Shown piece after piece: positions 14,523-33,854 of a stretch of DNA of 64,000 nucleotides (within the stretch, counting starts at the first letter, position 1; every line of letters starts with the position of its first letter). The notes under the pieces were generated by a model. The model saw only the letters and a program-made list of their open reading frames with translations. It did not search any database and was not told the DNA's origin. The DNA comes from a virus (taxonomy: Duplodnaviria; Caudoviricetes), in IMG/VR virus record IMGVR_UViG_3300013212_000088, positions 32,001 to 96,000 of that record. One strand, given 5' to 3'. Position numbers and translations under genes: made by a program.

Positions 14523-14843
14523 TTGTCAATGCATTCAGGCATAAAGAGCTTTTTCAATTTAGGTGGAAAAGATAATAATACTCAAAAAGAGATCTGTGTT
14601 ACTTGCAAATATTTGGGCAAGTCAATAGATGTTTGTTCAATTTTACCTGGCAAATCTATAAGGTGCTCGGTATGTGGATTGCCTGTGCATAGAAGCCACC
14701 GTACTTTATTTTCTGCAGAAGCCTATGTTTGCCCCTCTTGTGTAGATAGACAGACAGGATGGAGCATGGAAAGAAGTGCTAGTAAATTGACAGATGCGGA
14801 AGTAAATAAGATCTTTGGGAATATTTTTGGAGACGACAAATGA
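14523..14843 (+). CDS. Cys-rich zinc-binding protein
   Basis: CVTC, C, CSVC, H..H, CPSC; AAAGGA SD; TTG 14523 or ATG 14529 start. Confidence 0.6.
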   Translation: MSMHSGIKSFFNLGGKDNNTQKEICVTCKYLGKSIDVCSILPGKSIRCSVCGLPVHRSHRTLFSAEAYVCPSCVDRQTGWSMERSASKLTDAEVNKIFGNIFGDDK

Positions 14844-15208
14844 CTTTAGTAGAAAAATTAATTAAACTTGCTGAAGACCTAGAAAATGAGGGTTTTATTG
14901 AAGAATCTGATCAACTAACAAATGCAGTAGAAAAAGATATTCAACAAAATCCAACCCAATTATTGATAGATAAAGATGATGAAGAAATTCACGAAACAGA
15001 AAAACCAAATCCATCTATGCCTTCAATGCCAACTCCACAACAATCAATGCCAGAACTTACAGAAAATGTTAGTCAAATAGAAGATGAACTAACCGCTGGA
15101 ATATTAGCTTTATTGGCAAAGAATAATGATTTCGTTTTAGGTGAACAAGGCGAAATAGGTAATTCTGATAATGAGTTTGTTGACGCTCTGCTTAATTTAG
15201 CATCTTAA
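14840..15208 (+). CDS. Acidic hypothetical protein with N-terminal KLA..LE..GF...SD helix motif
   Basis: ATGA overlap with upstream gene; motif shared with the C-terminus of 33174-33854. Confidence 0.65.
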   Translation: MTLVEKLIKLAEDLENEGFIEESDQLTNAVEKDIQQNPTQLLIDKDDEEIHETEKPNPSMPSMPTPQQSMPELTENVSQIEDELTAGILALLAKNNDFVLGEQGEIGNSDNEFVDALLNLAS

Positions 15209-15426
15209 TTTACTTTTGTTTTTCTATCATAATCAGCTACACATTGGGGTGGTGGAACTGTAATTCTACAATCTTCACAATGTGACTGAGTATGTACAAC
15301 CCAATCTTGCCATGTTTTTAATTGATTAGTTCTTCTCATTGAATTAGAAGACATAGGCGCATAAGCTTCATTTTTCATAAAGAAGCTTTTCCCGCAGTCA
15401 TGACACAAACAGCTAATAACTGGCAT
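15205..15426 (-). CDS. Small zinc-ribbon-like protein
   Basis: CHDC...CEDC; likely start MPVISC at 15426. Confidence 0.5.
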   Translation of the reverse strand: MPVISCLCHDCGKSFFMKNEAYAPMSSNSMRRTNQLKTWQDWVVHTQSHCEDCRITVPPPQCVADYDRKTKVN

Positions 15427-15811
15427 ATGTTTTAAAGTCCACAATTTTATCAATCATAAAAGCATCGATTTCATGCTCATTTTTTAAGTAAGTAGCTGTA
15501 TTGTACTCATCTATATAGCAATGTATATATCCGTTAACAGAATTATAGCTAAAGTCCTTAATTAAGATGTTTGAAATATAATTACTCTTCTTTATTTCTA
15601 TATAATAATCTAAAACTTTATCCATTGGTCCAGAAACTGTATTTTCGACATACCAAAAGTTAGTTTCTTTTGGCGGTATTTCTTTTCCGATGTTAACTTT
15701 ATAATTGTAAGATGTTTCGGAAAAAGATTTAACTTCTTCGCCTGTTTCTTTATTATAGATTTCAAGAAGCTGATTTATTTTTTTATCAGTTCCATTCCAA
15801 ATTATATTCAT
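15413..15811 (-). CDS. Hypothetical protein
   Basis: 132-aa ORF, stop/start overlap with the upstream gene. Confidence 0.55.
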   Translation of the reverse strand: MNIIWNGTDKKINQLLEIYNKETGEEVKSFSETSYNYKVNIGKEIPPKETNFWYVENTVSGPMDKVLDYYIEIKKSNYISNILIKDFSYNSVNGYIHCYIDEYNTATYLKNEHEIDAFMIDKIVDFKTYASY

Positions 15812-32649: not shown

Positions 32650-32715
32650 TAGAAGGTTATAACATAAATACACTGTAATTAAAATTATATCTTGATTATC
32701 ATGTGAGAACTTAAA

Positions 32716-33174
32716 ATGCATAATATCGAATCAGAATTTCATTCACTCTTAGAGGAAATTACTCCGAACGCTCATTCAACAGACGAACAAGCTAGAATCA
32801 TTGCTGAAGCTTCAGCAATATATAGTAAAATCTCTTCTAGAAGAATTGCGAAAAGAAATAATCCAAGATTGGTTGAAGCTCAAATGACTGAAGCTATTTT
32901 ACAAGCTATGGGATCTGTTTCTAAATGGGATGAAAATTATGATCTTCCATTTGTAGATGCTCATGGGTTGTCTACCAACCAGATTCTAAGACAAGCAAGC
33001 AAAACCTCAATTACTAATTGGGGTACAAACAAAGTTCTTAATCCAGACTTATTAAAAGAAGATGATCAAGATGAAGATTTGTTTGATTTCAAGAATGGCG
33101 ACAATCAAGAACCAGATGCATTTACTGAAGAACCAAAACATAGAACAGATTTTCAATCAAACAATACTAGATAA
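32716..33174 (+). CDS. Hypothetical protein with acidic tail
   Basis: 152 aa; contains RLVEAQM; stop overlaps the next start. Confidence 0.6.
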   Translation: MHNIESEFHSLLEEITPNAHSTDEQARIIAEASAIYSKISSRRIAKRNNPRLVEAQMTEAILQAMGSVSKWDENYDLPFVDAHGLSTNQILRQASKTSITNWGTNKVLNPDLLKEDDQDEDLFDFKNGDNQEPDAFTEEPKHRTDFQSNNTR

Positions 33175-33854
33175 TGAAAAGATTAAAGATTGCTCAAATG
33201 CCACCAACTGATCCTGCTGCAGGAGCAATGGGTGCTGCACCTCCAATGGACCCTATGGGTGGTATGGGCGGTGGAATGATGGGTGGCATGAATCCTATGA
33301 TGGGCGGAATGGGTGGACCTCCAACACTACCAACTGCCATGCCTGGTGCAACTGGTGTCACTCGTGAAGAAATTGGTTCACCATTAGACAGACTTGGAAA
33401 AATCCTATATGACGTTGATATCAATTCTCTTTTGTTAACTCAACTAGGAGACGATGTTGAAGACACTGCACTTTCAGTATGGTCGCTTTATGGCGGGGAT
33501 GAACAAGGTGTTGATGTTGTGGTAGGTCGTACAGGCAAAAGAATTAAGAGAAAAGATGTCTCTAAAGAAGAAGAAGAAGCTGAACAAGAAAGAACAGAAG
33601 AAAAAAGATGGGAAAGATTACCAGCTGGAATGTCAATTGCTGATATAACTTCTTTAGACAAAATGGTAAATCAAATTAGAGGAATTGCATCAAGCGCAGT
33701 TAAGAACGAACTTAAAGCTCAAGGTGCTGCAGCTGGAGGCGGAATGCCAATGGCTCACAGAAATAGAGATATTGTAAAAATTGCCAGAAAACTCGATTTA
33801 ATTGGATTTTATCGCTTGGCAGACACAATATCCTCAAAGCTAACTAAAATCTAA
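33174..33854 (+). CDS. Hypothetical protein with M/G/P-rich low-complexity region
   Basis: MKRLKIAQM followed by PPMDPMGGMGGGMMGGMNPMMGG; C-terminal KIARKLDLIGFYRLAD helix. Confidence 0.7.
   Translation: MKRLKIAQMPPTDPAAGAMGAAPPMDPMGGMGGGMMGGMNPMMGGMGGPPTLPTAMPGATGVTREEIGSPLDRLGKILYDVDINSLLLTQLGDDVEDTALSVWSLYGGDEQGVDVVVGRTGKRIKRKDVSKEEEEAEQERTEEKRWERLPAGMSIADITSLDKMVNQIRGIASSAVKNELKAQGAAAGGGMPMAHRNRDIVKIARKLDLIGFYRLADTISSKLTKI

What the first reader, a model, noticed from the sequence alone, without database searches (positions are those of the whole stretch)
14840..33854. Portable about 20-aa helix K(L/I)AxxL(D/E)xxGFxxx(A/S)D at the termini of three unrelated proteins
Seen: KLAEDLENEGFIEESDQLT (N-terminus of 14840) aligns without gaps to KIARKLDLIGFYRLADTIS (C-terminus of 33174). 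A weaker copy, VIDTAIAFDDEEVIE, opens 18316 and precedes HLAQ/FKTA. The rest of each protein is unrelated. Inference: a docking module for the scaffold/inner body or a chaperone, possibly partnered with the K-x-A-Q signal.
Basis: partly seen in the sequence, partly recalled or inferred. Interest (0 to 1): 0.7.

Follow-up and report, generated by a model that had tools for sequence, protein, structure and literature searches.

The report
Portable helical-hairpin tag on megaphage proteins
Two of the three segments are copies of a real, undescribed 36-38-residue two-helix tag that this uncultivated giant phage and its relatives attach to the ends of many unrelated proteins, probably as an address label for the assembling virus head, though its binding partner is not shown.

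Summary
Partly confirmed. The N-terminus of the 122-aa protein (14840) and the C-terminus of the 226-aa protein (33174) are real copies of one module. As a pair they are weak (6/19 identical, BLOSUM62 score 27). A profile built from them finds 10 copies in this 261-kb phage genome, and the proteins are otherwise unrelated. It also finds 974 protein clusters among 1.84 billion representatives, mostly at residues 1-40. The third "copy" (18316 ORF) is rejected (-0.5 bits).

The module is a helix-turn-helix hairpin joined to its payload by disordered linkers. It resembles a TPR repeat but matches no Pfam TPR model, no solved structure and no paper I could find. It is the most conserved part of the 122-aa family. 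In the 226-aa family its key residues persist down to 34% identity.

In relatives, tag-led genes form same-strand arrays of up to 12 with unrelated payloads. Most N-terminal copies end in Lys/Arg-hydrophobic-Ala/Ser. The closest working analogues are the T4 capsid-targeting sequence and the P22 scaffold coat-binding hairpin.

Capsid targeting is inferred and the partner is unknown. This scan has already met the same tag, elsewhere in this genome and in other phage-G-like genomes. The closest cultured relative, Bacillus phage G, gave no match.

The parts
14840..14947 (+). N-terminal tag copy of the 122-aa protein (residues 1-36)
   Evidence: 43.9 bits against the broad tag profile. AlphaFold2 helices 3-16 and 20-36, pLDDT 73-78, followed by a disordered linker at 37-73. 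Residues 9-31 are nearly invariant across homologs down to 38% identity. Mean column conservation is 0.85 in the tag against 0.53 in the linker.
14840..15208 (+). Gene of the 122-aa acidic tag-bearing protein
   Evidence: 104 metagenomic homologs. No Pfam or PHROG family. A conserved two-gene unit with the Zn-finger gene upstream.
14523..14843 (+). Context: small Zn-finger protein overlapping the start of the 122-aa gene by 4 nt
   Evidence: Weak ClpX-type C4 zinc-finger hits, below Pfam cut-offs. The same gene pair and overlap occur in relatives at 38-63% identity.
33174..33854 (+). Gene of the 226-aa protein: N-terminal MKRLKIAQ, Gly/Met/Pro-rich disordered region, folded core 66-184, Gly linker, C-terminal tag
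   Evidence: 113 homologs, alignment A2, AlphaFold2 model. No fold match. Conserved synteny: PhoH, large protein, two small genes, this gene, GyrB, GyrA.
33744..33761 (+). Conserved hinge M-P-M-A-(S/H)-R just before the C-terminal tag
   Evidence: The most conserved short stretch of the family (0.79; alignment). A possible protease site; this is inference only.
33762..33851 (+). C-terminal tag copy of the 226-aa protein (residues 197-226)
   Evidence: 42.0 bits, profile positions 1-36. Helices 193-209 and 213-224. A204 and D217 are invariant and D208 and G211 nearly so across the family. The protein ends K-I-stop where N-terminal copies have K-[IL]-A.
19462..19506 (-). Claimed third, weaker copy in the 18316 ORF: not a member
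   Evidence: -0.5 bits against the tag profile. Ungapped scores 11 and 8. Absent from all genome scans.

Best explanation
The two segments are diverged copies of one portable module of 36-38 residues. It is an amphipathic helix, a turn with a conserved Gly, and a second helix (core pattern h-A-x-x-L-D-x-x-G-x-a-x-E-A-D/N-x-h). It stands alone at a protein terminus on a flexible linker.

Shown here: the module is real and under purifying selection. It is attached to many unrelated payloads in this phage and in about a thousand metagenomic protein clusters. It is usually the first 38 residues. Most N-terminal copies end in a fixed Lys/Arg-hydrophobic-Ala/Ser triplet at the junction with the payload.

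Inferred: it is an address or docking label that brings tagged proteins into the assembling prohead, either onto the scaffold or core or onto the inner face of the shell. Where the triplet is present, the head protease then cuts the tag off, as with the T4 capsid-targeting sequence.

On this reading the 226-aa protein is built like a scaffold or internal protein. It has a short K-I-A-Q leader, a disordered Gly/Met/Pro region, a folded core, and a C-terminal docking hairpin behind a conserved P-M-A-S/H hinge, comparable to the C-terminal coat-binding hairpin of the P22 scaffold. The 122-aa acidic protein keeps its tag, because it has no cleavage triplet.
For: Family is real:
- 10 copies in the genome.
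- 974 representatives at E<=1e-3 and 124 at E<=1e-10.
- In the best 150 representatives, 127 tag copies are N-terminal, 6 are C-terminal and 75 are internal.

Portability:
- The payloads of 94 single-tag representatives fall into 53 unrelated clusters.
- This genome's payloads are unrelated to each other.
- 113 of 115 tag proteins have no TPR hit, and payload families are hit in at most two proteins each.

Separate hairpin on linkers.

Selection:
- In the 122-aa family the tag is the best conserved part, 0.85 against 0.53-0.69 elsewhere.
- The tag's key residues are kept across the 226-aa family down to 34% identity.
- The leader DNA of neighbouring paralogues differs at many positions while the peptide is kept.

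Junction triplet: profile column 35 is K/R in 148 of 155 sequences, and column 37 is A/S in 139 of 140.

Gene organisation matches the hypervariable T4 internal-protein loci with their conserved CTS (PMC9026906):
- 120 tags in 25 viral loci, in same-strand arrays of 2-12 tag-led genes.
- One copy of this genome (185 kb) lies among acidic K-x-A-rich genes about 6 kb from the portal.
- In locus L038 two tag genes lie directly upstream of the large terminase and portal genes.
Against: - No binding partner is shown, and there is no proteomic or cleavage evidence for this clade.
- The two window genes are not in the head module. One sits beside a lysozyme and fibre genes, the other between PhoH and gyrase, and both neighbourhoods are conserved.
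- The main tag array of this clade lies in a region of small unknown genes, not by the head genes.
- Bacillus phage G, the closest cultured relative (capsid protein 49% identical), gave no match to the tag profile. A capsid-protein receptor would therefore not be a general feature of this capsid family.
- The K/R-h-A/S triplet might simply be the end of helix B. My own test for N-terminal enrichment of K-x-A in this genome is weak: 14 proteins against 5-11 in later windows.
- The window's 122-aa copy lacks the triplet.
Confidence: 0.5

Rival explanations
1. Co-assembly module. The hairpins stack on each other in TPR fashion, so tagged proteins join into one homo- or hetero-oligomeric complex or network. 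This need not be in the capsid, and proteins with several tags would act as cross-linkers.
For: The tag profile cross-hits genuine TPR_10/TPR_12 proteins, and its nearest solved sequences are kinesin light chain and RapH TPR repeats. Many relatives carry 2-3 tags, some directly adjacent, for example at residues 3-37 and 40-74. From general knowledge, a single TPR-like hairpin is rarely stable alone. Both helices show a wide conserved hydrophobic face. Tag charge varies widely within this genome, from strongly acidic in the 122-aa protein to basic in the 226-aa protein, which would allow complementary pairs (inference).
Against: No oligomer was tested here. This reading alone does not explain why the tag sits at the extreme N-terminus or why a fixed K/R-h-A/S triplet marks the junction. 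It is compatible with the best explanation, since the complex could be the head core.
Confidence: 0.2
2. Recognition tag for a phage-encoded chaperone or unfoldase, either the ClpX-like AAA+ protein at window 19562-20956 or DnaK/DnaJ. The tag would mark proteins for remodelling, timed degradation or assisted assembly.
For: The tags are terminal, as many AAA+ recognition signals are (general knowledge). The phage encodes a ClpX-like ATPase. The 122-aa tag protein overlaps by 4 nt, and is conserved together with, a small protein carrying a ClpX-type zinc-finger signature. ClpP and ClpX are reported in phage G virions (PMC12484599).
Against: Known ClpX tags are short unstructured peptides, not 38-residue hairpins (general knowledge). 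Internal and tandem copies exist. Only one of the ten tag genes has the zinc-finger neighbour. Phage G has ClpXP but gave no tag match. No test was run here.
Confidence: 0.1
3. The hairpin is only a common structural cap of each protein, or a chance resemblance, with no shared docking role.
For: The hairpin of the 226-aa protein is modelled with only moderate confidence (pLDDT 54-62).
Against: Profile statistics. 53 unrelated payload clusters. Disordered linkers between tag and payload. Near-invariance of the tag in the 122-aa family, including exposed acidic residues. Arrays of tag-led genes.
Confidence: 0.05

Closest known systems
Phage T4 capsid-targeting sequence (CTS) of internal proteins IPI-III and Alt (reviewed in PMC9026906)
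   Same: An N-terminal portable leader shared by otherwise unrelated, fast-evolving small proteins. It ends at a conserved short motif at the junction with the payload. In T4 the leader gives affinity for the prohead core and is removed by the head protease, and T4 relatives carry varied proteins with CTS-like leaders.
   Different: The T4 CTS is 10-19 residues with no defined fold and is cut at a gp21 site (the cleavage logo cited in PMC9026906, e.g. LIE-9). This tag is a 36-38-residue helical hairpin ending in K/R-h-A/S. It also occurs at C-termini, internally and in several copies. There is no sequence similarity, and neither targeting nor cleavage has been shown for it.
[quoted passage not shown]
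   Same: A small helical hairpin at a protein terminus on a flexible linker that docks a protein to the inside of a procapsid. The 226-aa protein has this layout, with a basic C-terminal hairpin.
   Different: The tag profile found no P22-like sequence among solved structures. Here the hairpin is shared by many proteins and is mostly N-terminal. Binding to the capsid protein is not shown.
Tetratricopeptide repeats of the TPR_10/TPR_12 (kinesin light chain) type
   Same: Helix A, turn, helix B with the pattern L-x-x-L-A-x-x-h-x-x-x-G-x-Y-x-E-A. The tag profile cross-hits true TPR proteins and, below threshold, the kinesin light chain and RapH repeats.
   Different: No Pfam TPR model matches the tags, even at E<=10. 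The tags occur singly, not in arrays of three or more. They have a conserved Asp after the Leu and a fixed K/R-h-A/S end.
Herpesvirus scaffold (pUL26.5 type), whose C-terminal tail binds the major capsid protein and is released by assemblin cleavage at an Ala-Ser site (general knowledge)
   Same: The 226-aa family has a conserved x-M-A-S/H-R hinge directly before its C-terminal docking hairpin.
   Different: Cleavage at the hinge is pure inference. There is no homology, and the window's own copy has His, not Ser, after the Ala.

Membership tests
   122-aa protein 43.9 bits, 226-aa protein 42.0 bits. The genome scan gives E 5.6e-17 and 2.7e-17, but both are seed sequences. Independent non-seed hits: 254,476 (1.9e-8) and 185,012 (2.9e-4); 224,671 and 232,847.
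   AlphaFold2: helices 3-16 and 20-36, then a disordered stretch at 37-73. Helices 193-209 and 213-224 after a Gly linker with pLDDT below 50.
   -0.5 bits. No hit in any genome scan.
   The triplet is present in most N-terminal family members. The 122-aa protein has K-D-I there, and the 226-aa protein ends K-I-stop.
TPR repeats (Pfam TPR clan) | Match to a Pfam TPR model | tested here: not met
   No TPR hit for the window proteins at E<=0.1, nor for ten tag proteins at E<=10. Only 2 of 115 tag-profile hits carry TPR models, and those two are true TPR proteins.
TPR repeats (Pfam TPR clan) | Tandem array of three or more repeats | tested here: not met
   The window proteins and the other tag proteins I examined in this genome carry single copies. 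Some relatives have two adjacent copies.
TPR repeats (Pfam TPR clan) | Repeat-like sequence pattern (reciprocal profile similarity) | tested here: inconclusive
   The tag profile hits multi-repeat TPR proteins with many stretches of 9-21 bits. The best PDB rows are kinesin light chain and RapH TPRs at E 0.09-0.14.
T4-type capsid-targeting sequence | Short N-terminal propeptide shared by unrelated internal proteins | tested here: inconclusive
   N-terminal position and unrelated payloads are met. Length (38 against 10-19 residues) and sequence differ, and the window's 226-aa copy is C-terminal.
T4-type capsid-targeting sequence | Removal by the prohead protease at a defined site | not testable with these tools
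   Only a conserved junction triplet is seen. Mass spectrometry of particles is needed.
T4-type capsid-targeting sequence | Directs the protein into the prohead | not testable with these tools
   No proteome of a tag-bearing phage is available. The phage G virion proteome (PMC12484599) is of a phage that gave no match to the tag profile.
P22-type scaffold coat-binding helix-turn-helix | C-terminal helical hairpin on a flexible linker | tested here: met
   The 226-aa protein. The hairpin is conserved across its family.
P22-type scaffold coat-binding helix-turn-helix | Sequence relationship to a solved scaffold domain | tested here: not met
   Profile search of all PDB sequences found no scaffolding protein at E<=10.
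P22-type scaffold coat-binding helix-turn-helix | Binds the major capsid protein | not testable with these tools
   Needs a binding or co-assembly experiment.

The most novel reading that the evidence does not exclude
The hairpins are self-stacking TPR-like units that co-polymerise into the internal core of megaphage heads. Any protein given the tag is then built into the core, and the head protease frees it at the K/R-h-A/S junction. On this reading the tandem arrays of tag-led genes are a fast-evolving arsenal of proteins injected with the DNA, and the packaged proteome of a whole clade of uncultivated giant phages could be read from sequence.
Probability: 0.2. Interest if true: 0.8.

Novelty: new variant of a known kind. 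Interest (0 to 1): 0.6.

Why it matters
Portable targeting peptides are known from T4 (the CTS) and, by engineering, from P22 scaffold fusions. This would be a natural, structurally defined and much more widespread version, seen in about a thousand protein clusters of uncultivated giant aquatic phages with almost entirely unannotated payloads.

If it is a head-loading label, it gives a sequence-only way to list which "dark" proteins are packaged and probably injected, such as candidate anti-defence or host-takeover factors. It would also offer a ready-made tag for loading cargo into large capsids. If instead it is a general co-assembly or chaperone handle, it still links dozens of unknown genes per genome into one system.

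Tried and rejected
- Third copy in the 18316 ORF: rejected.
- Co-fold of the tag of the 226-aa protein (alignment A5) with this phage's major capsid protein (alignment A6): the tool returned "no answer" (score 0.00, controls not run). I use it neither for nor against binding.
- Megablast of the region against GenBank phages: no match.
- tblastn of three tag segments against 50,697 phage records: nothing at E<=0.01 for two of them, and only chance-level hits at E<=10 for the third.
- Tag profile on the phage G genome: no hit at E<=1. The same search on this genome served as positive control.
- Pfam and PHROGs on the window proteins: nothing relevant.
- Foldseek/PDB and VIA-wide searches with the 226-aa model: no meaningful fold match, best Z 4.8. 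The ESM Atlas feature search gave only a 0.76 lead.
- PDB sequence search of a roughly 1000-aa protein with a C-terminal tag from a relative: no hit.
- I first took the 374-aa gene next to the 185-kb tag gene for a capsid protein. It is a UDP-galactopyranose mutase.
- Pfam S21 and HK97 capsid models on this genome: no hit. The capsid gene was found through phage G gp27 instead.
- Literature string search for the motif: only irrelevant hits. The phage G, moraphage and jumbo-phage review papers do not mention such a tag. The phage G structure paper (PMC7316594) is not held.
- The search for related loci with the broad alignment failed for lack of a conserved stretch. A narrower alignment worked.
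- My test for N-terminal enrichment of K-x-A in this genome was only weakly positive.
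Full report
CONTEXT
The window is bases 32,001-96,000 of a single 261,424-bp IMG/VR virus contig (GC 0.34, estimated 73% complete). It encodes tail-fibre-like proteins, PhoH, a type II topoisomerase, a ClpX-like ATPase and very large ORFs. Its portal (31.6% identity, E 1e-66) and major capsid protein (49% identity, E 5e-94) are closest to Bacillus phage G among cultured phages. The head module lies outside the window on the minus strand: portal at 176,653-179,031, a 1408-aa ORF that an earlier first-reader note calls a protease-scaffold, an acidic 533-aa protein, a 211-aa protein, and the capsid protein at 168,982-169,812.

THE OBSERVATION

Taken as a pair they are weak. 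Six of 19 residues are identical and the BLOSUM62 score is 27. Eight to ten other 19-mers in the genome's ORFs score as high against either segment.

The top-scoring 19-mers in that test were further copies of the same motif. A relaxed regex gives four hits in the genome and none in 300 shuffled proteomes. A profile of the four finds two more at E 2e-8 and 3e-4. A profile of eight copies (A1) finds ten places in the genome, two of them not in the seed. These lie at 46,840 and 65,744 (the two window copies), 185,354(-), 224,671, 232,847, 246,674, 247,594, 253,654, 254,063 and 254,497.

With the tags masked, no pair of the nine tag proteins I compared matches below BLASTP E=0.06. The claim that the rest of each protein is unrelated therefore holds.

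The third, "weaker" copy in the 18316 ORF is not supported. Its ungapped scores are 11 and 8, it scores -0.5 bits against the profile, and it is absent from every scan.

SPREAD
The A1 profile, searched against 1.84 billion representative proteins, gives 974 hits at E<=1e-3 and 124 at E<=1e-10.
- In the best 150 representatives, 127 tag copies start within the first 12 residues, 6 are C-terminal and 75 are internal.
- Several proteins carry two or three tags separated by charged linkers, and some tags are directly adjacent.
- Long proteins with many low-scoring stretches are true TPR_10/TPR_12 proteins.
- The payloads of 94 single-tag representatives fall into 53 unrelated clusters, 37 of them singletons.
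- Pfam recognises almost nothing in the payloads.

I found no annotation of the tag anywhere. No Pfam TPR or other model matches it, even at E<=10. No PDB sequence reaches E<0.087; the nearest are kinesin light chain and RapH TPR repeats. No GenBank phage matches, and no paper holds the motif strings. The phage G genome gives no hit with a profile that rings ten times in this genome.

ANATOMY
The profile columns show a first helix with conserved L10, I/L13, A14 (229 of 237), L17 (232) and D18 (204). The turn has G21 (230). The second helix has Y/H/F23, E25 (222), A26 (225), D/N/E27 and I/L/V29. In sequences that extend that far the second helix continues V32, M33, K/R35 (148 of 155), L/I/V36 and A/S37 (139 of 140). 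After that, conservation stops.

AlphaFold2 models with family alignments show the hairpin as a separate unit.
- In the 122-aa protein: helices 3-16 and 20-36 (pLDDT 73-78), then a disordered stretch at 37-73.
- In the 226-aa protein: a disordered region at 1-65, a confident core at 66-184, a Gly linker, then helices 193-209 and 213-224 at moderate confidence.

So the segment is not an integral part of a known fold. The core of the 226-aa protein has no fold match.

THE TWO WINDOW PROTEINS
The 122-aa protein has 104 homologs. The tag is its best conserved part: residues 9-31 are nearly invariant, including exposed acidic residues, and mean conservation is 0.85 against 0.53 for the Pro-rich linker. 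At the junction it has K-D-I, so it lacks the K/R-h-A/S triplet. It forms a conserved two-gene unit, with a 4-nt overlap, with a small Zn-finger protein. That unit lies next to an SLT-type lysozyme and fibre genes.

The 226-aa protein has 113 homologs. All aligned members keep three features: an N-terminal K/R-x-A-Q leader, a Gly/Met/Pro-rich region, and a C-terminal tag preceded by a Gly run and a conserved M-P-M-A-S/H-R hinge, which is the most conserved short stretch (0.79). The protein stops at K-I, at profile positions 35-36, where N-terminal copies have K-[IL]-A. Its neighbourhood is conserved in distant relatives: PhoH, a large protein, two small genes, this gene, GyrB, GyrA.

GENE ORGANISATION IN RELATIVES
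A scan of IMG/VR with the canonical sub-family gave 25 loci holding 120 tags.
- Tag-led genes form same-strand tandem arrays of 2 to 12 genes. Each starts at Met with the tag and continues with a different payload.
- Proteins of about 1000 aa that end in a tag also occur.
- The arrays are syntenic with this genome's 249-261 kb region. That region holds mostly unknown small genes, a pilin-like gene and a homing endonuclease.
- In one short contig (L038) two tag genes sit directly upstream of the large terminase and portal genes. In another (L035) a 12-gene array is followed by an anti-restriction-type gene.
- In this genome the 185-kb copy lies among acidic, K-x-A-rich genes upstream of the portal, next to a UDP-galactopyranose mutase.
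- The leader DNA of three neighbouring paralogues differs at many positions while the peptide is kept. This points to selection on the peptide rather than recent duplication.

HOW IT MOST LIKELY WORKS
Shown: a portable, selected, terminal hairpin on flexible linkers, attached to unrelated payloads, with a fixed basic-hydrophobic-small triplet at the junction in most N-terminal copies.

Inferred: it is a docking or address label. The pattern is a conserved leader, a junction motif, hypervariable payloads and arrays of such genes. That is the pattern of the T4 capsid-targeting sequence and the variable internal-protein genes of T4 relatives. There the propeptide gives affinity for the prohead core and is removed by the head protease (PMC9026906).

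A C-terminal helical hairpin on a flexible linker is also how the P22 scaffolding protein binds coat protein (bioRxiv 10.1101/2022.12.13.520362; PMC9965877). Engineers exploit that hairpin to load cargo into P22 capsids (PMC9962691).

I therefore put about 0.5 on "head-loading tag, removed where the triplet is present".

Evidence against this reading:
- Both window genes and the main arrays lie away from the head module.
- No match to the tag profile was found in phage G.
- My own test for N-terminal K-x-A enrichment is weak.
- No partner is shown.

Rivals are TPR-like self-stacking of tags (0.2; compatible with a head-core role), a handle for the phage's ClpX-like or DnaK machinery (0.1), and no shared role (0.05).

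COMPARISON AND NOVELTY
The tag works most like the T4 CTS or the P22 scaffold hairpin, but it is a member of neither. It has no sequence relationship to either, its length and fold differ from the CTS, and the defining activities cannot be tested here. It looks like a single TPR-type unit but fails the Pfam TPR models and the tandem-array criterion. I file it as a new variant of a known kind, a portable phage targeting or docking peptide.

EARLIER NOTES OF THIS SCAN
After I had found the extra copies, the scan's index showed that the same tag had already been reported from another window of this genome (e1-5337359) and from several other phage-G-like genomes. Related notes propose a K/R-x-A head-protease code (e1-5337346). 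These are unchecked AI notes. I reproduced the family, its spread and the junction triplet independently. I did not verify cleavage or packaging. This report adds the two window members, one of them a C-terminal copy.

Noticed in passing
L001:1977-2150 (genome 254,476-254,649, outside the window): A stand-alone tag ORF whose start position reads ATA where its two upstream paralogues have ATG. It is only about 50 codons long, whereas relatives have a 127-aa gene there starting with GTG or ATG. It is probably a decaying copy or uses a non-canonical start.
   Followed up: partly
window 14523-15208: The Zn-finger gene (weak ClpX-type C4 signature) and the 122-aa tag gene overlap by 4 nt. They stay paired, next to an SLT-type lysozyme gene, in relatives down to 38% identity.
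   Followed up: partly
window 25167-38585: Conserved gene order in distant relatives: PIN-PhoH, a large protein of variable size (1970 aa here; 993 and 277 aa elsewhere), two small genes, the 226-aa tag protein, GyrB, GyrA. In one relative the helicase, PhoH and GyrA genes carry homing-endonuclease or LAGLIDADG-type insertions or are split.
   Followed up: partly
L004:17490-18614 (genome 185,490-186,614, minus strand): A UDP-galactopyranose mutase (E 3e-112 to solved Glf enzymes) lies among the acidic K-x-A-rich genes upstream of the portal, next to a tag gene.
   Followed up: no
L003:1175-2089 (genome 246,674-247,588): A tag-bearing 304-aa protein with an Ala/Lys/Gly-rich stretch, a run of 13 Gly, collagen-like G-x-x repeats, a predicted membrane helix and a C-terminal domain. 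The next gene (419 aa) also starts with a tag and has Gly/Met/Pro-rich low complexity like the 226-aa protein.
   Followed up: no
L016-L018 (IMG/VR relatives), e.g. L018:1527-4556 minus strand: Proteins of 937-1012 aa that end in a C-terminal tag of the same dialect as the window's 226-aa protein (V-K-I-A-Q-K-L-D...). They have no PDB sequence match.
   Followed up: partly
L035/L036 (IMG/VR_UViG_3300007513_000004 and 3300007512_002757): Twelve consecutive same-strand genes within 10 kb, each led by the tag in a second dialect (M-I-N-E-L-I-K-L-A-T-H-L-D-K-K-G...). An anti-restriction-type gene (phrog_7245) lies about 2 kb downstream.
   Followed up: partly
window 18316-19593 (minus strand): The 425-aa ORF has no ATG before residue 64. 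Its listed TTG start overlaps the end of the ClpX-like gene by 32 nt, so the true start is uncertain.
   Followed up: no
genome 170,527-186,000 (L004): Head-module proteins of 533 and 351 aa are extremely acidic and hold 10-13 [KR]-x-[AS] motifs each. Several neighbours start with short K-x-A leaders (for example M-W-Y-R-I-K-K-A-Q).
   Followed up: partly
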